Virus genome (UHGV): UHGV-0069047
Length of the DNA: 40,276 bases
DNA from: a virus
Direction: 5' to 3' (one strand)
A program made the translations under genes and the position numbers. Under the pieces are notes generated by a model. That model saw only the letters and a program-made list of their open reading frames with translations, searched no databases and was not told the origin of the DNA. Below, piece by piece: positions 6,882 to 28,941 of the stretch (position 1 is the stretch's first letter; each line of letters starts with the position of its first letter).

Positions 6882-6972
6882 ATTTACATCGCACTCCTCT
6901 TGTGCCATAGTAATCAGGCACTGGCAAAATCCAGTGCCGGGATTGGTCTCCCGGATTACTAAGTGGCGCATA

Positions 6973-6995
6973 CCACGCCAGACGTGGTTTTTTTA
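6973..6995 (+). terminator. rho-independent terminator
   Basis: CCACG-ccaga-CGTGG followed by TTTTTTTT. Confidence 0.55.
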
Positions 6996-7152
6996 TGCGT
7001 ATAGCACAGTCATGCCAGAATTATGGTGGGCTGAATGGGGGTCCGAAAGGACGCCGGTACCACTTAGGCCGGTAAGACCAACTCCGTTCAGTTCACCACC
7101 ATCTGATTGGTCTCAGCGGTGGTGATGTAATTCGCTAAGTGGAGACGCCATC

Positions 7153-7809
7153 ATGAACGCTCAACTCATCCCCGTATTCAACGGCACTATATCTAACGAA
7201 ACAGCCCTACTTTGTAATGCCCGCGATCTGCACGCTTTTTTAGGTGTTAAAAAGGTGTTTGCAGCATGGATTACAAATCGCATTTCAGAATACGAATTCA
7301 TTGAAAATCAAGACTATATTTTGCTTTCCAATTTGGGAAAGCAAACATCTGGTAGAGGCGGACACAACCGCAAAGAGTACCACCTCACCCTTGATACAGC
7401 CAAAGAGCTGGCGATGGTCGAGCGTAACGAAAAAGGTCGCCAGGTGCGACGCTACTTCATTGAATGCGAGAAACGTTTAAGACAACAAGAAACAAAAGTG
7501 GAGAAGGTCTTGTCAGGCTTCATGCCCGCCATTATGGAGGCGATCAAGCTGGAAGACAAAAAAGAATACAGTGCACCGCTGAAGCCCGGCTACCGGAGCC
7601 TGATTCATTCGCCGTCTGGTGTTCTCGGCCTGACGGAGAACTCACTGCTGATGAATTTGCTGAACCAGTTACAGGAAGACGGGCATGACGTATCGGGCGC
7701 GGCGGCGGAACTGACCACCATGTTCTGCTACATCGTTGGTGTGAGCAAATGCCTGCGTGATATCCAGACTCACGCGGAGTACATCAACGACAAAGCAGGA
7801 TTCTTCTGA
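7153..7809 (+). CDS. antirepressor (AntA-type N-terminal domain)
   Basis: N-terminal block (IPVFNGT...[10 protein letters not shown]...[32 protein letters not shown]) matches the AntA/AntB antirepressor domain as I recall it; SD GGAGACG. Confidence 0.65.
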
Positions 7810-8470: not shown

Positions 8471-8542
8471 ATGGACGAAACAAAAGTCAGTGCTACACTC
8501 ATTGACGCCACATTGAGGTGGCTTATAGATGGAAATGTCACA

Positions 8543-8704
8543 ATGAAAAAAGCATTTGCTGCACTGTTCGTTTTGTTGTCTCTGGTAGCTTCAACTCAGG
8601 CCTTTGCCGGTCGTTGTCAGCACGACAGCGATACTGCCGCTGACGGCTCCCGCTGCGGTGGGCGTTCTGCGGATTCCCGCCCGGGCGGCGGTGGCATTCG
8701 TTAA
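8543..8704 (+). CDS. small secreted peptide (53 aa precursor, 2 Cys)
   Basis: Signal peptide MKKAFAALFVLLSLVASTQAFA then Gly/Arg/Cys-rich 30-aa tail; start at internal ATG 8543. Confidence 0.4.
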   Translation: MKKAFAALFVLLSLVASTQAFAGRCQHDSDTAADGSRCGGRSADSRPGGGGIR

Positions 8705-8726
8705 AAACAAGGCCGCGAAAGCGGCC
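8703..8726 (-). terminator. hairpin terminator for the minus-strand tail operon
   Basis: GGCCGC-gaaa-GCGGCC with T-run on the minus strand (TTGTTTTT). Confidence 0.5.
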
Positions 8727-8727
8727 T

Positions 8728-8739
8728 GTGACATGTCAC
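8728..8739. repeat. 12-bp palindrome GTGACATGTCAC (copy 1 of 3)
   Basis: Perfect palindrome; identical copies at 26283 and 28583. Confidence 0.7.
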
Positions 8740-9032
8740 GTTCCTTTTCTGAATGATAGCCGTTCGAAAAATGATGACATTCCACCGCAGACAATAGCAA
8801 AGATGATCCCACCAAAGAAGAGAAGGCCAGCCTGCCACCACTCCCACCGCCATACATCCACAGCGCCAATCATACCAACAATCGCTCCAACAAACGGAAT
8901 ATAACTCACGACAAAAGCAACGGGAGCTGCAATTATCCAGTGCAACCCCCACCATGATTCAAGCCCAGCCATAATTGCTGCCAACTGAAAAAGACCAACG
9001 ACGATATAAACAATGAATCCTATAGCTTGCAT
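8736..9032 (-). CDS. multi-TM membrane protein (98 aa)
   Basis: Hydrophobic, Trp-rich; SD before ATG; at distal end of tail operon. Confidence 0.5.
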   Translation of the reverse strand: MQAIGFIVYIVVGLFQLAAIMAGLESWWGLHWIIAAPVAFVVSYIPFVGAIVGMIGAVDVWRWEWWQAGLLFFGGIIFAIVCGGMSSFFERLSFRKGT

Positions 9033-23016: not shown

Positions 23017-23309
23017 TCCTGTTCACTGGCCTCTTTGGCCATCTTCAAATACTGTTCAGGGCAATGCGCCATAACGCGCTGAAACAGTTCCAGCGCCAGA
23101 TTGCGTTGCCCCTCATTAAATGCCATTGCCATAGCGTCCATCGGTGAGATAGCGGAAAACACACGACCTTTCTCCAGCACAGACCAGACAACGCGACGCC
23201 CCTGTTCACTGCTCATGACAAAGCGAATGTCATCAATTTCACGCTGTGCCATGTCACGTTGCTTACGGGCGTTTTCTTCTTTCAGTTGATCGTCTTCGTA
23301 ATCTGTCAT
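23013..23309 (-). CDS. hypothetical head-assembly protein (98 aa)
   Basis: Overlapping starts/stops with portal and scaffold genes. Confidence 0.45.
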   Translation of the reverse strand: MTDYEDDQLKEENARKQRDMAQREIDDIRFVMSSEQGRRVVWSVLEKGRVFSAISPMDAMAMAFNEGQRNLALELFQRVMAHCPEQYLKMAKEASEQE

Positions 23310-25631: not shown

Positions 25632-25708
25632 GTGGCATTAGCTCAGTTTGACAGAGCAACCGCCTTCTAAGCGGTTGGTCGCAGGTTCGAATCCTGCATG
25701 CCACGCCA
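25632..25708 (+). tRNA. tRNA-Arg (anticodon UCU), phage-encoded
   Basis: Hand-folded cloverleaf: 7-bp acceptor GTGGCAT/ATGCCAC, D-stem GCTC/GAGC, anticodon stem ACCGC/GCGGT with loop CTTCTAA, T-arm GCAGG-TTCGAAT-CCTGC, encoded CCA. Confidence 0.85.
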
Positions 25709-25752
25709 GAATCACGCCTAAGGACCGTGATGCCAGAAGTTCCAGGTGCTTG

Positions 25753-25796
25753 GCGGTGATAGTTTCCCTTGAAGGACTATCACCGCCCTTTTTACA
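25753..25796 (+). terminator. rho-independent terminator after tRNA
   Basis: 12-bp stem GGCGGTGATAGT/ACTATCACCGCC followed by CTTTTT. Confidence 0.6.
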
Positions 25797-25871: not shown

Positions 25872-25895
25872 GCCCGGTTCGCCGGGCATTTTTTT
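25872..25895 (+). terminator. terminator or attenuator hairpin abutting the next gene's SD
   Basis: GCCCGG-ttcg-CCGGGC followed by ATTTTTTT, then AAGGTGAG SD and ATG 25907. Confidence 0.55.
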
Positions 25896-25906
25896 AAGGT
25901 GAGATT

Positions 25907-26278
25907 ATGAACGACCAGCAAATCGAAAAAGAAATCGTTGAGAAAGGCAAAACGGCACCGCGCGTTACGCCAGACCATATCGAAGGCATTATTGCTCAGG
26001 AGGCATATTTCACAGCAGAAGATGGTGCCTTTGGCAAAGCCATAAAAGCGAAACATACTGGCGGAGAGGTAAACTACCAGCCGCACGAATCACTTTCTCT
26101 GCTGACGTTCTGCGTCCTGGTGCTGCGCAACGGCTTCACCGTCACCGGAGAGAGCGCCTGTGCAAGCCAGGAAAACTTTGATGCAGAAATTGGTCGGAAG
26201 ATTGCCCGGCAGAATGCTGTAAACAAAATCTGGATGCTCGAAGGTTACTTGCTGAAGCAGAAGCTAAGCGAGCAATAA
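25907..26278 (+). CDS. conserved hypothetical phage moron protein (123 aa)
   Basis: Strong SD; plus-strand gene inside minus-strand late operon; possibly gp49-like family, from memory only. Confidence 0.55.
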   Translation: MNDQQIEKEIVEKGKTAPRVTPDHIEGIIAQEAYFTAEDGAFGKAIKAKHTGGEVNYQPHESLSLLTFCVLVLRNGFTVTGESACASQENFDAEIGRKIARQNAVNKIWMLEGYLLKQKLSEQ

Positions 26279-26282
26279 CACC

Positions 26283-26294
26283 GTGACATGTCAC
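26283..26294. repeat. 12-bp palindrome GTGACATGTCAC (copy 2 of 3)
   Basis: Perfect palindrome 5 nt after stop of the 25907..26278 gene. Confidence 0.7.
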
Positions 26295-26298
26295 AAAC

Positions 26299-26326
26299 AG
26301 CCAGCCGATGAGCTGGCTTTGTTTTA
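26299..26326 (+). terminator. rho-independent terminator
   Basis: AGCCAGC-cgatga-GCTGGCT followed by TTGTTTTA. Confidence 0.6.
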
Positions 26327-26368: not shown

Positions 26369-27844
26369 TTAAGCATATGGATCGTAATCTGTGATGGCCT
26401 TGCCTTGCTGGTTCTGCTGCCCGGGAATTCGCAGACGCTTCGACACAGGGAACGCAAACGTCAGCAGTAGCGCATCGCCTTTACCAGGAGAACGCCCAAG
26501 CCGCTCCTTGATATCTTCCTTCGGTTCGATAACGATTTTACCGTCCACTCGAACTTTGTACTCTGCCGCAGACAGGTCGTCCGCTGTTTCCTGGTCATCC
26601 AGCATGCCGCCCAGCCTCAGCCATGTCTTGCATGAGTTGAACATCTCCCCACGCTTGTTGAGCATCTGCGGGTCAGTAGACGCGCCACCGAACGGAACAA
26701 GTTGCCATGTGCGCCCCCAACCATCACCGATTGACTTCAGACCGGTACCGTAACCGAAGTCGATGAACACCGCGTCAGCCTGATACTGGTCTTCAAAGTC
26801 AGCGATACGCTTCGCCATAATCAGATCGTCGGTAGTCTTGTTGCCAGTCCACAGCACCTTACTGTGTAGCCCCTGCCGCAGGTATATCACCGCGTCATCA
26901 ACGCCTGAATATGCCGGGTCAACACCGATTATCACCGGAGCATGCGCCACCTGCGCAGCGGTTACCACCCGTTTCATTGCCTCATCAGTAAGACCGGTAG
27001 GGATAAACTGCAATTCAGATGCATCAGGGAATATGCCGCGCACACGGATTTTAACGAAGTCGCTGTCTTCCCCGTAGTCATCGACCCATTTCTGCAACTG
27101 CTGTTTGTTAGTGCCTTCCACCGTCCGGCTGTCAATCTGCGCAGTTTTCCAGCGGTGTTTATATTTGCGGAAACATTCGCGGAAACGCCCGGTGTTACGT
27201 GTAGGGTTTCCGAACGCCACCCAGATAATCTCAGTGTCTTCGTCCGTAAGCGCACCCTCAGCAACTTCCCACACCAGATCCGCAATGTTCGACGCTTCAT
27301 CGAATACCACGATGATGCGTTTGCGCTCGTTGTGTAGTCCGGCGAATGCCTCAGTGTTGTGCTCAGACCAGGGGATTGCGTCAGCTCGCCACCGCTTGTC
27401 GTGCCCAGGATCATTGCTGTACATCGCGGTAGCGGTACAGGTAAACCAGTCTTTCGTGATAGCAAGGTTCGACCACTTGATAATTTCCGGCCAGGTCTTC
27501 GTTCGTAGCTGGTTGTCGGTGTTGGCGGTCACCACGACCTTACAATCCTCGCAAGTGGACATGCCCCAGTTGATCAGCATTGAGATGAATGCGGATTTAC
27601 CAATACCGTGACCAGAAGCGCGTGCCAGCATAAGCGGCTGATAGCGCGTCTCTGGATTCTGCAGGTGATCACGTATCTCTCGGAACGCATCAGCCTGCCA
27701 CTGACGTGGACCGGTGGCATGTGCCAGTTCAGTCCCCTCTTCCCCCCACGGGAACGCATAGAGGGCATAGCCAAGCGGATCGTGAGTGAACCCTGCAATA
27801 TCCTCGATCAACTGCTCTTCAGGAGATAACGCTGCATCTGTCAC
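26369..27844 (-). CDS. terminase large subunit
   Basis: 491 aa; N-terminal ATPase-like and C-terminal nuclease-like regions; start overlaps terS stop. Confidence 0.8.
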   Translation of the reverse strand: MTDAALSPEEQLIEDIAGFTHDPLGYALYAFPWGEEGTELAHATGPRQWQADAFREIRDHLQNPETRYQPLMLARASGHGIGKSAFISMLINWGMSTCEDCKVVVTANTDNQLRTKTWPEIIKWSNLAITKDWFTCTATAMYSNDPGHDKRWRADAIPWSEHNTEAFAGLHNERKRIIVVFDEASNIADLVWEVAEGALTDEDTEIIWVAFGNPTRNTGRFRECFRKYKHRWKTAQIDSRTVEGTNKQQLQKWVDDYGEDSDFVKIRVRGIFPDASELQFIPTGLTDEAMKRVVTAAQVAHAPVIIGVDPAYSGVDDAVIYLRQGLHSKVLWTGNKTTDDLIMAKRIADFEDQYQADAVFIDFGYGTGLKSIGDGWGRTWQLVPFGGASTDPQMLNKRGEMFNSCKTWLRLGGMLDDQETADDLSAAEYKVRVDGKIVIEPKEDIKERLGRSPGKGDALLLTFAFPVSKRLRIPGQQNQQGKAITDYDPYA

Positions 27845-28569
27845 TGATTGCCATCCTGACGTTCTTTCAGTCTCTTCCTGGCTGCCGCTATGCGATCAGC
27901 AATTGTCACATTCACATTAACATCCAGGCGTTCTTTGAATGCGTTGACGTCGACGTGCTTACCAATCAGTTCGAGGTTTTTCACCTTGTCGGGCCATTTC
28001 ACCTTCTTCAGGATATGCTCGACATCCTCAACAGAGAGATCCGCCTCGCCATTCTCTTTTTGCAGAGAGGCCTGAGTCGTCTTGATAGTAGCGATATCCA
28101 TCGCGCTGAGAGAGGTGCGCCATACCTTAGGCCACTCAGCGATCGGCTTCATCCCGCCGTCGTCGTTCAAGATATCCAGGACATCCATCTGGTCGATCTC
28201 TACCAGGCGCATGAGGACGTAATCAGCGCTGACGCGCATTCGTTTGTTGCGCTCCTCCATCAACTCGGCAATCCGTTTTTGAATGCGTTCATCGCGCATC
28301 ATGACACTGGCTTTAACTGCCGCTGTATTTGGGGAGAATCCTGCGTTAATCGCTGCCTGAGTCTGGTTTTCAGGCGTTTTGATGTATGACTGGCAATAAG
28401 CCTCCTGCATTGCTGTTAGTGGCTTAAATTGCGTTGATTTGCGTTTATAGGTTTTAGGTTCAGCAGGCATCATAACCACCGTGGTAATAGTTACCGTTGT
28501 GGTAATAGTACCATGCAAAATAAAGCCGCCATAGTTGGCGGCAGTATTCAAAACCATCAAATTCATCAT
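27841..28569 (-). CDS. terminase small subunit
   Basis: Immediately upstream of and overlapping terL; true start may be the internal MMPAEP (near 28473). Confidence 0.6.
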   Translation of the reverse strand: MMNLMVLNTAANYGGFILHGTITTTVTITTVVMMPAEPKTYKRKSTQFKPLTAMQEAYCQSYIKTPENQTQAAINAGFSPNTAAVKASVMMRDERIQKRIAELMEERNKRMRVSADYVLMRLVEIDQMDVLDILNDDGGMKPIAEWPKVWRTSLSAMDIATIKTTQASLQKENGEADLSVEDVEHILKKVKWPDKVKNLELIGKHVDVNAFKERLDVNVNVTIADRIAAARKRLKERQDGNQ

Positions 28570-28582
28570 GCATAATCTACTC

Positions 28583-28594
28583 GTGACATGTCAC
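28583..28594. repeat. 12-bp palindrome GTGACATGTCAC (copy 3 of 3)
   Basis: Perfect palindrome overlapping the stop of the 28591..28941 gene, just upstream of terS. Confidence 0.7.
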
Positions 28595-28941
28595 ACTATT
28601 AATTTCGTTTCATGCCAGCCTTTAGTCACCCAGCATTGCGAGTCACCATTACACGGGCATGAATTAACTGGAACTCTCTCGCCGCACTTACCGCAACATT
28701 TTCTGCTGATCGATTTTATACGCCCGCGCACGCGTGCATCATCCTGGCGGATCAGTAACGCTATATACTCACCAAATTCGTAAGGCGCACGCCCGGGGCG
28801 ACGCGTGGCACAGTTACGCTCCAGCATTTCAATTTCCTGAGCATCAAGCACAATTTCCAGCTTACGCACACCAGATGCAGCTTGTCTGGCTCTCTGAGCG
28901 GCTTTGCGCTCTGCTGCTGATTTAGCCATTACCATATCCAC
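28591..28941 (-). CDS. hypothetical protein with Cys-rich C-terminus
   Basis: Basic helical N-terminus; C-terminal CCGKCG...CPCNGDSQC zinc-ribbon-like cluster. Confidence 0.4.
   Translation of the reverse strand: MDMVMAKSAAERKAAQRARQAASGVRKLEIVLDAQEIEMLERNCATRRPGRAPYEFGEYIALLIRQDDARVRGRIKSISRKCCGKCGERVPVNSCPCNGDSQCWVTKGWHETKLIV

What the first reader, a model, noticed from the sequence alone, without database searches (positions are those of the whole stretch)
8727..8740. Perfect 12-bp palindrome GTGACATGTCAC occurs three times at gene ends
Copies at 8728-8739, 26283-26294 and 28583-28594; the latter two share the 14-mer CGTGACATGTCACA. Each lies within a few bases of a stop codon at an operon boundary (end of the secreted peptide gene, end of the tRNA-moron gene, immediately upstream of terS). 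Three perfect 12-mers in 40 kb are not expected by chance. It may be a binding site for an unidentified regulator, a packaging-related site near terS, or a recombination hotspot marking moron junctions.
Basis: seen in the sequence. Interest (0 to 1): 0.5.

Follow-up and report, generated by a model that had tools for sequence, protein, structure and literature searches.

The report
Conserved palindrome marking phage operon ends
A 12-base palindrome that occurs three times in this epsilon15-like prophage is a conserved site, most likely bound by a small uncharacterised phage regulator whose stop codon overlaps one copy, and it sits at the ends of transcription units rather than at promoters.

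Summary
GTGACATGTCAC occurs exactly three times, against 0.01 expected. All three copies share the 14-mer CGTGACATGTCACA, with site 1 inverted.

The window is an epsilon15/phiV10-like prophage. Salmonella phage epsilon15, phiV10, TL-2011b and phiv142-3 carry the motif at the same places: after the stop of the gp49-like gene ahead of terS, beside the terminator after terL, and beside the terminator ending the structural operon.

In 61 gene-containing loci chosen only for encoding a homologue of that 112-aa protein (phrog_536, no Pfam family), 38 have GTGAC-NN-GTCAC at the gene's end. They span more than ten genera. The half-sites never change, the centre varies, and the flanks are unconserved. 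N15, phiKO2 and Pantoea AH07 show the same arrangement.

I read it as the operator of this regulator. I infer, without direct evidence, that it gates transcription at unit boundaries, somewhat like mycobacteriophage stoperators. A packaging role is not supported. The site does coincide with mosaic junctions, but that is probably a consequence of its position. The protein's fold and the effect of binding remain unresolved. I found no prior description.

The parts
8728..8739 (.). Site 1: palindrome GTGACATGTCAC. It contains the TGA stop of the last structural-operon gene and abuts the operon's terminator.
   Evidence: homologous sites in phiV10 (19493), epsilon15 (19517), TL-2011b (32282) and phiv142-3 (7086)
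26283..26294 (.). Site 2: palindrome between the stop of the plus-strand moron gene and the bidirectional terminator shared with terL.
   Evidence: homologous sites in phiV10 (2262), epsilon15 (2142) and phiv142-3 (24300, variant GTGACACGTCAC), and after terL in several genera
28583..28594 (.). Site 3: palindrome overlapping the TGA stop of the regulator gene, about 40 nt before a terminator.
   Evidence: the same arrangement in epsilon15 (39612) and TL-2011b (11500), and in 38 of 61 unbiased gene-containing loci
28591..28929 (-). Candidate cognate regulator, 112 aa (epsilon15 gp49 / N15 gp46 family, phrog_536). It has a basic N-terminus, three predicted helices and an invariant Cys4 cluster.
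28525..28542 (-). Intrinsic terminator ending the early-right operon, between site 3 and terS.
   Evidence: conserved hairpin GCCGCC(A/G)ACTATGGCGGC in epsilon15 and other loci
8710..8727 (-). Intrinsic terminator of the structural operon, directly adjacent to site 1.
26299..26318 (+). Terminator hairpin with an A-tract and a T-tract (bidirectional), serving the moron and terL, 4 nt from site 2.
28491..28505 (.). Repressor (Rep) operator TTACC-N5-GGTAA in the terS promoter region. This is context showing that terS has its own controlled start downstream of site 3.
   Evidence: annotated as a repressor site in epsilon15
27841..28473 (-). terS (small terminase). The start is revised from the longest ORF.
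   Evidence: Terminase_2 from residue 51 of the long ORF
8736..9032 (-). Last gene of the structural operon (membrane protein, phrog_3075). Its stop lies inside site 1.
25907..26278 (+). Moron gene (Phage_gp49_66 family) converging on terL. It ends 4 nt before site 2.
8471..8704 (+). Small secreted or membrane peptide gene (phrog_3117) converging on the structural operon at site 1.

Best explanation
GTGAC-NN-GTCAC (here YGTGACATGTCACR) is a double-stranded DNA operator. It is recognised by a symmetric oligomer of the small phage protein encoded at 28591..28929 (epsilon15 gp49 / N15 gp46 family, phrog_536).

In epsilon15-like phages the protein has three sites, all at the 3' boundaries of transcription units:
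- after its own stop codon, at the end of the early-right operon and ahead of the terminator that precedes terS;
- on the far side of the terminator shared by terL and a converging moron;
- between the last structural gene and that operon's terminator.

Inferred mechanism: once made, the protein occupies these sites. It then gates or blocks RNA polymerase that would otherwise run across unit boundaries, reinforcing the adjacent terminators and insulating convergent or consecutive units. In other phage types the single site after the gene would gate transcription into whatever follows (xis/int, the next gene, or an SOS-controlled promoter).

Shown: the site exists, it is conserved, it is linked to the gene, it has invariant half-sites, and it sits at stop codons and terminators.
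Inferred: that this particular protein binds it (about 0.7), and that binding acts as an elongation gate or boundary (about 0.35).
For: Over-representation: 3 copies against 0.01 expected. Epsilon15 and ZF40 each have 3 copies against about 0.04-0.05 expected.

Positional conservation: the same three positions are kept in phiV10, TL-2011b, phiv142-3 and Salmonella epsilon15.

Unbiased test: 62 genome loci were picked only by protein homology, and 61 of them contain the gene. Of these, 38 have GTGAC-NN-GTCAC within -40..+100 nt of the gene's end, and at least 36 have an exact 12-mer somewhere within about 3 kb. The chance expectation is about 4e-4 per locus.

Footprint: the half-sites are invariant and the centre varies (AT, AC, CT, GT, AG, TG, and the still-palindromic GC in five Yersinia loci). 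The flanks carry only 0.2-0.5 bits, and the offset to the stop codon ranges from -1 to +13. This rules out a coding constraint.

Distant homologues: proteins only about 35% identical (N15 gp46, phiKO2 gp45) keep CGTGAC-TG-GTCACG across their stop codon. Pantoea AH07 keeps CGTGAC-CT-GTCACG.

The protein: PHROGs and RefSeq call it a transcriptional regulator. It has an invariant Cys4 cluster and a basic N-terminus.

Terminators next to all three window sites. Across 163 unique contexts, 56% have a terminator-like hairpin within 70 nt, against a 24% background. Forty-one hairpins lie 0-7 nt away, against a 6.7% background.

No covariation in the would-be RNA stem, and the 4-bp hairpin is marginal. 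This favours recognition of DNA sequence.
Against: There is no direct binding evidence.

The protein's fold is unresolved. AlphaFold gave pLDDT 51 and 66, Foldseek found no PDB match, and there is no Pfam family. The only hint of a ribbon-helix-helix fold is a non-significant NCBIfam match at E = 0.055.

About 20 of the 61 homologue loci lack the motif at the gene end, although some have it elsewhere in the locus.

In ZF40 two further exact copies lie inside genes, not at terminators. One AH07 copy encodes part of a CxxC motif in a Q-like gene and may be coincidental.

The terminator statistics come from related, non-independent loci, most of them selected by the 14-mer.

A roadblock role is an inference from position only. 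Activation, DNA looping or an RNA-level role are not excluded.
Confidence: 0.55

Rival explanations
1. Module-boundary ('linker') sequence. The palindrome plus adjacent terminator is a short shared sequence at which different phages recombine, creating moron and module swaps. No dedicated binding protein is needed.
For: Homology breakpoints between the window and related loci cluster at the motif edges: position 8740 seven times, 28581 six times, 28598 five times, and 26274-26282. Many unrelated genes abut the same 14-mer, and different morons end with TAA-YRC directly before it. The phage encodes RecE/RecT-like proteins (annotations).
Against: Shared ancestry or recombination alone does not explain invariant half-sites with a free centre and unconserved flanks across genera. 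It also does not explain the tight link to one gene family in podo-, myo- and siphovirus contexts. Twelve to fourteen base pairs is very short for homologous exchange. The breakpoint analysis used loci selected for containing the motif. This reading is compatible with the operator explanation rather than a true alternative to it.
Confidence: 0.15
2. RNA-level element. The transcribed GUGACAUGUCAC forms a mini-hairpin stacked on the terminator hairpin, or binds a protein as RNA. It would tune termination, 3'-end stability or translation of the next gene.
For: The motif lies on the transcript 0-6 nt 5' of terminator hairpins at sites 1 and 2. RNAfold places a 4-bp hairpin next to the terminator stem. 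In several phages the motif lies just before the Shine-Dalgarno sequence of the next gene. The protein has a Cys4 knuckle that could bind RNA.
Against: The stem has only 4 bp. It shows no compensatory changes at all, while the 'loop' ends C and G are invariant. Strict dyad symmetry with a fixed 2-bp spacer is the signature of a dimer on double-stranded DNA. At the terL terminator the motif is 3' of the hairpin for the late transcript.
Confidence: 0.1
3. Loading site of a Q-like late antiterminator. The protein binds site 3, modifies RNA polymerase leaving the early-right operon, and lets it read through the terminator into terS-terL and beyond.
For: The gene is the last one of the early-right operon. 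It is followed by the site, about 40 nt of spacer, a strong terminator and then the late genes, which resembles lambda Q / PR' / tR'. No Q homologue is annotated in epsilon15-like phages.
Against: No conserved sigma-70 promoter overlaps the site. The spacer between site and terminator differs in length and sequence among relatives. terS, the structural operon and the tailspike gene each have their own repressor-controlled start. ZF40 and AH07 carry a canonical Q-like antiterminator in addition to this family. In many prophages the gene precedes xis or other genes with no terminator. Sites 1 and 2 make little sense as loading sites.
Confidence: 0.08
4. Packaging signal (pac or terS-binding site), or a site for a host factor or some other phage protein, with the link to the gp49-like gene being mere synteny.
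For: Two of the three sites flank terS-terL in epsilon15-like phages.
Against: The gene-motif pair persists next to unrelated neighbours and far from terminase genes in N15, phiKO2, ZF40, AH07, P2-like Yersinia phages and PL-type prophages. Three identical cleavage or recognition sites in one genome would be odd for a pac site. Synteny alone cannot explain conservation of 10 bases amid randomised flanks.
Confidence: 0.07

Closest known systems
Mycobacteriophage L5 'stoperators' (gp71 repressor sites inside operons that block elongation; Brown et al. 1997, recalled from memory)
   Same: Short protein-binding sites placed in the small gaps at gene ends within or at the ends of operons, rather than only at promoters. 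The proposed effect is on elongating RNA polymerase.
   Different: L5 sites are asymmetric, orientation-dependent, number about 30, and are bound by the immunity repressor. Here there are 3 palindromic sites, and the immunity repressor has a different operator (TTACC-N5-GGTAA). The candidate binder is a delayed-early protein, and the sites adjoin intrinsic terminators. No functional test exists.
Lambda Q / qut / tR' late-control module
   Same: A small, possibly zinc-binding protein is encoded as the last early-right gene. It is followed by a DNA site, a terminator and the late genes.
   Different: There is no sequence relationship to Q and no conserved promoter around the site. Additional sites lie at operon ends. 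The family coexists with true Q genes in ZF40 and AH07.
Ribbon-helix-helix repressors with palindromic operators (P22 Arc/Mnt, CopG, MetJ)
   Same: Small size, a basic N-terminus, a strand-like stretch followed by two helices in the profile, and a short dyad-symmetric target.
   Different: Fold not confirmed. There is an extra Cys4 C-terminal module. The operators lie at 3' ends of genes rather than overlapping promoters.
Boundary or linker sequences at mosaic joints of lambdoid phages, and 'morons' bounded by a promoter and terminator (Susskind and Botstein 1978; Juhala et al. 2000; Clark et al. 2001; recalled from memory)
   Same: A conserved short sequence lies exactly where homology between related phages breaks, next to moron terminators.
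   Different: Here the sequence is a strict palindrome with a protein-footprint-like conservation pattern, and it is tied to one regulator gene family.
Epsilon15/SPC32H Rep operators (ATTACC-N4-GGTAAT)
   Same: The other multi-copy palindrome of the same phage, also spread over the late region.
   Different: Rep sites sit at the 5' ends (promoters) of units, whereas the GTGAC palindromes sit at the 3' ends. The sequences are unrelated.

Membership tests
Transcription-factor operator (dimer-binding dyad site) | Dyad symmetry with conserved half-sites, fixed spacing and a tolerant centre | tested here: met
   GTGAC-NN-GTCAC is invariant in 38 unique loci. The centre is AT, AC, CT, GT, AG, GC or TG, and the flanks carry 0.2-0.5 bits.
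Transcription-factor operator (dimer-binding dyad site) | Demonstrated binding by a cognate protein | not testable with these tools
   Only genomic linkage to the phrog_536 gene is available. No EMSA, ChIP or complex model is possible here.
Ribbon-helix-helix DNA-binding proteins | Beta-alpha-alpha fold forming an intertwined dimer | tested here: inconclusive
   AlphaFold monomer models have pLDDT 51 and 66, with helices at 5-18, 30-43 and 52-75 and a disordered stretch at 21-25 where the strand would be. Foldseek found no PDB hit with E below 5. NCBIfam YbfE matched at E = 0.055. No Pfam RHH hit.
Lambda Q-type antitermination module | Protein homologous to a Q family | tested here: not met
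   No Pfam, NCBIfam or PHROG Q match. ZF40 and AH07 have separate Q-like genes.
Lambda Q-type antitermination module | Binding element embedded in a sigma-70 promoter, followed by a terminator ahead of the late genes | tested here: inconclusive
   The terminator is present 40 nt downstream. Only a weak promoter-like match is found (GTGACA-18-CATGAT, 9 of 12), no better than shuffles, and it is not conserved among relatives.
L5-type stoperators | Sites in short intergenic gaps within or at the ends of operons | tested here: met
   A stop codon lies within 20 nt in 93 of 163 contexts, and the sites overlap or follow stop codons.
L5-type stoperators | Bound by the prophage immunity repressor; many asymmetric, orientation-dependent copies | tested here: not met
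   The Rep operators are a different motif, present 10 times. There are only 3 copies here, and they are palindromic.
L5-type stoperators | Blocks transcription elongation | not testable with these tools
   Requires reporter or term-seq experiments.
pac/cos packaging site | A unique site linked to the terminase genes and to virion DNA ends | tested here: not met
   There are three copies. The gene-motif pair is found far from terminase genes in N15, ZF40, AH07 and P2-like phages. The start of the phiV10 record inside the motif simply follows the last stop codon.
Intrinsic terminator | GC-rich hairpin followed by a U-tract | tested here: not met
   The motif itself gives only a 4-bp stem with no U-tract. 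True terminators lie beside it.

The most novel reading that the evidence does not exclude
A widespread family of small temperate-phage proteins (epsilon15 gp49 / N15 gp46, found in about 12% of complete E. coli genomes) defines a previously unrecognised kind of transcription-unit boundary control. The protein binds palindromes placed after stop codons and beside intrinsic terminators, including directly after its own gene. There it acts as a switchable gate that decides whether polymerase crosses from early into late, integration or moron units. These protein-occupied boundaries would also be the preferred joints of phage mosaicism.
Probability: 0.3. Interest if true: 0.75.

Novelty: new variant of a known kind. 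Interest (0 to 1): 0.55.

Why it matters
Late-gene and boundary control in epsilon15-like phages is poorly understood, and no Q-like protein has been identified in them. These phages include serotype-converting Salmonella phages, O157 reporter phages and common E. coli prophages.

This finding gives a concrete, testable pairing: one uncharacterised protein family and one exactly defined 12-bp site at three mapped positions. It could explain how consecutive and convergent units are insulated from each other, and why moron and module swaps occur at the same points.

The same site and gene occur in N15-like, P2-like and lambdoid prophages. In lambdoid prophages they often sit just ahead of xis/int, so the mechanism may affect excision control more broadly. 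If it turns out to be only an ordinary operator, it still supplies a functional annotation for a protein now labelled hypothetical in hundreds of genomes.

Tried and rejected
- Record-end coincidence. The phiV10 GenBank record begins inside the palindrome, which suggested a cos/pac end. The record merely starts after the last stop codon.
- Promoter reading. GTGACA resembles a -35 hexamer, and the scan gave two weak 9/12 matches. These are no better than shuffles and have no conserved -10 partner in relatives.
- Known host-factor sites (CRP, LexA and others). Compared from memory only; the spacing and half-sites do not fit. LexA boxes do occur downstream of the motif in some prophages but are separate elements.
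- Protein fold. Two AlphaFold runs gave pLDDT 51 and 66, and Foldseek against the PDB, phmmer and hmmsearch against the PDB, Pfam, NCBIfam and PADLOC were all uninformative.
- Literature. The 12-mer string is absent from the searchable full texts. The ZX5 'regulatory protein' paper concerns other proteins. The epsilon15 genome paper is not held. A search on N15 gp46 found nothing relevant.
- Rfam. No family matches at the three sites.
- A defective E. coli prophage (YJ6) fetched to look for further copies held only the gene-proximal site.
- Altered-specificity palindromes in homologue loci that lack the motif. None were found; those loci have insertions such as toxin-antitoxin modules or LexA-controlled genes instead.

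Full report
**Observation**

GTGACATGTCAC occurs exactly at 8728, 26283 and 28583. The expected number is 0.01, and no dinucleotide-preserving shuffle reached three copies. Allowing two mismatches adds only GTGCCATGTCAC at 23246.

Reading both strands shows that all three copies share CGTGACATGTCACA, with site 1 in the opposite orientation. In an unbiased set of sites, the flanking positions are Y at -1 and R at +1. The C...A flank is therefore just one form of a degenerate 14-bp dyad.

**What the window is**

BLAST places the window among epsilon15/phiV10-like podoviruses (genus Uetakevirus) and their E. coli prophages. The late genes are on the minus strand.

I used the annotated genomes of phiV10, TL-2011b, phiv142-3 and epsilon15, together with terminator scans. 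From these, the three sites lie as follows.

- Site 3 overlaps the TGA stop of the last early-right gene (28591..28929, minus strand; the epsilon15 gp49 homologue). About 40 nt further along comes a strong terminator (28542..28525). After that come a repressor operator (28491-28505) and terS, whose real start is about 28473, not the start of the longest ORF at 28569.
- Site 2 lies 4 nt after the stop of a plus-strand moron (Phage_gp49_66 family) and 4 nt before a hairpin with A- and T-tracts. That hairpin also terminates terL coming from the other side.
- Site 1 contains the stop of the last structural-operon gene (8736..9032) and abuts that operon's terminator (8727..8710). A plus-strand peptide gene converges on the same terminator.

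All three sites therefore sit at the 3' boundaries of transcription units. By contrast, the phage's other palindrome family sits at the 5' ends of units. That family is TTACC-N5-GGTAA, it occurs ten times in the window, and it is annotated as repressor sites in epsilon15.

**Conservation**

phiV10, TL-2011b and phiv142-3 carry the motif at the homologous positions. One phiV10 copy is split by the record ends, and TL-2011b lacks the post-terL copy.

Salmonella phage epsilon15 is too diverged for megablast over most of its length. Even so, it has exact copies at all three homologous places: 2142, 19517 and 39612.

A scan of IMG/VR with the 14-mer returned more than 120 stretches. Sorting them by context gave three recurring classes that match the three window sites. 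In each class the sequence on one side of the motif is highly variable. The variable partners are different terS types or other downstream genes, different last late genes, and different morons with different terminator hairpins. The motif itself is unchanged.

**Link to one gene family**

The protein encoded at 28591..28929 belongs to phrog_536, labelled 'transcriptional regulator'. It has no Pfam family.

To avoid selecting on the motif, I fetched 62 genome loci using protein homology alone. One of them is only a 19-residue fragment match, which leaves 61 loci containing the gene.

- 38 of the 61 have GTGAC-NN-GTCAC within -40..+100 nt of the gene's end, and most of these copies are exact.
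- They come from Citrobacter, Klebsiella, Pantoea, Erwinia, Xenorhabdus, Providencia, Rahnella, Yersinia and other genera.
- At least 36 loci contain an exact 12-mer somewhere within about 3 kb. Chance expectation is about 4e-4 per locus.
- The offset from the stop codon ranges from -1 to +13, so the motif is not a coding constraint.
- The half-sites never vary. The central dinucleotide does: AT, AC, CT, GT and AG, and GC in five Yersinia loci, where the palindrome is preserved.
- The flanks carry only 0.2-0.5 bits.

Homologues only about 35% identical keep the arrangement. N15 gp46 and phiKO2 gp45 have CGTGAC-TG-GTCACG across their stop codon, and Pantoea AH07 has CGTGAC-CT-GTCACG.

ZF40 has three exact copies against 0.05 expected, one of them 3 nt after its homologue's stop.

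The gene appears in several different settings:
- early-right operons, as in epsilon15-like phages and ZF40;
- PL-type operons just ahead of xis/int, as in AH07 and E. coli YJ6;
- P2-like early operons and N15-like phages.

About 12% of complete E. coli genomes carry the gene region.

This pattern is what a cognate protein-operator pair looks like. It is hard to reconcile with a packaging site, a promoter or pure synteny.

**What follows the site**

In roughly 60% of the gene-proximal sites an intrinsic terminator follows within 10-60 nt. In the rest, one of three things follows:
- the Shine-Dalgarno sequence and start of the next gene, as in N15, Providencia/Proteus and YJ6;
- xis;
- a LexA-box promoter.

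The arrangement terL, terminator, motif, converging moron is kept in several genera.

Over 163 unique contexts, 56% have a terminator-like hairpin within 70 nt, against 24% for random window positions. Forty-one hairpins lie 0-7 nt away, against a background of 6.7%. These contexts are not phylogenetically independent, so the figures are descriptive only.

**Mechanism**

Strict dyad symmetry with a fixed 2-bp spacer, invariant half-sites and no compensatory changes points to a symmetric protein on double-stranded DNA. An RNA structure is less likely, because the best RNA fold is only a 4-bp hairpin.

Across all contexts the site sits directly after a stop codon and before the next unit. My best inference is therefore a gate or roadblock for elongating polymerase at unit boundaries, which in epsilon15-like phages would reinforce the adjacent terminators. 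That step is inferred from position only.

A Q-like antitermination reading was considered, because site 3 resembles Q / qut / tR'. It is weakened by four observations:
- no conserved promoter overlaps the site;
- the late units have their own repressor-controlled starts;
- ZF40 and AH07 carry true Q genes as well;
- many sites have no terminator after them.

**The protein**

The alignment shows a basic N-terminus and invariant C79, C82, C91 and C99, probably a zinc knuckle. AlphaFold gave only low to moderate confidence (pLDDT 51 and 66), with three helices. Foldseek and sequence searches of the PDB found nothing. A ribbon-helix-helix fold is suggested only by a non-significant NCBIfam match at E = 0.055. 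I treat the fold as unresolved.

**Mosaic junctions**

Homology between the window and related loci often ends exactly at the motif edges. Different morons end with TAA-YRC immediately before it. However, a constrained element lying between exchangeable modules would produce the same picture, and the locus set was biased toward motif-containing DNA.

**Novelty**

The 12-mer does not occur in the searchable literature. The richly annotated epsilon15 record lists repressor, IHF, RNase III, integrase and terminator features, but not this site. I found no study of the protein family.

The closest concept I know of is the stoperators of mycobacteriophage L5. This site differs in symmetry, copy number, binder and its adjacency to terminators. 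I rate it as a new variant of a known kind and of moderate interest. The identification of the site and its gene link is solid, but the function is still hypothetical.

Noticed in passing
window 6486, 6867, 7882, 25297, 28491, 32368, 32430, 34761, 35473, 35535: A second palindrome family, TTACC-N5-GGTAA, occurs ten times against 0.08 expected. It matches the sites annotated as repressor-binding in epsilon15. The sites lie at the 5' ends of units, including terS, the structural operon and the tailspike gene, so late units appear to be directly repressor-controlled.
   Followed up: partly
window 6918-6994 (+) and 7019-7103 (+): Rfam matches above gathering score to isrK (Hfq-binding sRNA) and C4 antisense RNA, just upstream of the antirepressor gene 7153..7809. 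This suggests a P1/P7-like antisense-controlled ant module.
   Followed up: no
window 27841-28569 (-): The longest terS ORF runs across an intrinsic terminator and a repressor operator. The real start is probably ATG at 28473 or 28470, as annotated in epsilon15 and TL-2011b.
   Followed up: partly
window 25632-25708 (+), with hairpins at 25752-25787 and 25872-25887: tRNA-Arg(TCT) lies on the strand opposite to the late genes. It is followed by two terminator-like hairpins before the moron gene that ends at site 2.
   Followed up: no
window 23246-23257: A one-mismatch copy, GTGCCATGTCAC, lies inside coding sequence near the portal gene. One half-site is broken, so it is probably not functional.
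   Followed up: no
L110, L024, L072, L053, L043, L065 (IMG/VR): In unrelated viral contigs the 14-mer lies within dense arrays of GTGAC/GTCAC half-sites. These look like iterons, or sit within repetitive coding sequence. It could be a different system using the same half-site.
   Followed up: no
L190 (Yersinia phage vB_YenM_42.18) 8073-11720: In this P2-like phage a 2.6-kb SMC-like gene and several small ORFs lie between the regulator gene and the palindrome. This looks like a cargo insertion between the gene and its site.
   Followed up: no
L126, L127, L135 (Citrobacter, Pseudocitrobacter, Kluyvera prophages), just downstream of the motif: The motif is followed within 6-7 nt by a sigma-70-like promoter overlapped by a LexA box. 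In the related phage Chlobot, a UmuD-like gene is annotated next to the regulator gene.
   Followed up: no
L197 (Pantoea phage AH07) 34430; L191 (ZF40) 5125 and 7622: Extra exact copies lie inside genes. The AH07 copy encodes VTCH of a CxxC motif in a Q-like antiterminator and is possibly coincidental. The ZF40 copies lie in gp08 and in the cII-like gene gp12.
   Followed up: partly
IMG/VR class C loci (for example L011, L045, L071, L094, L102, L116) and window 26276-26282: Many different morons after terL end with TAA followed by YRC directly before the palindrome, as if incoming genes are joined at a fixed point that includes the stop codon.
   Followed up: no
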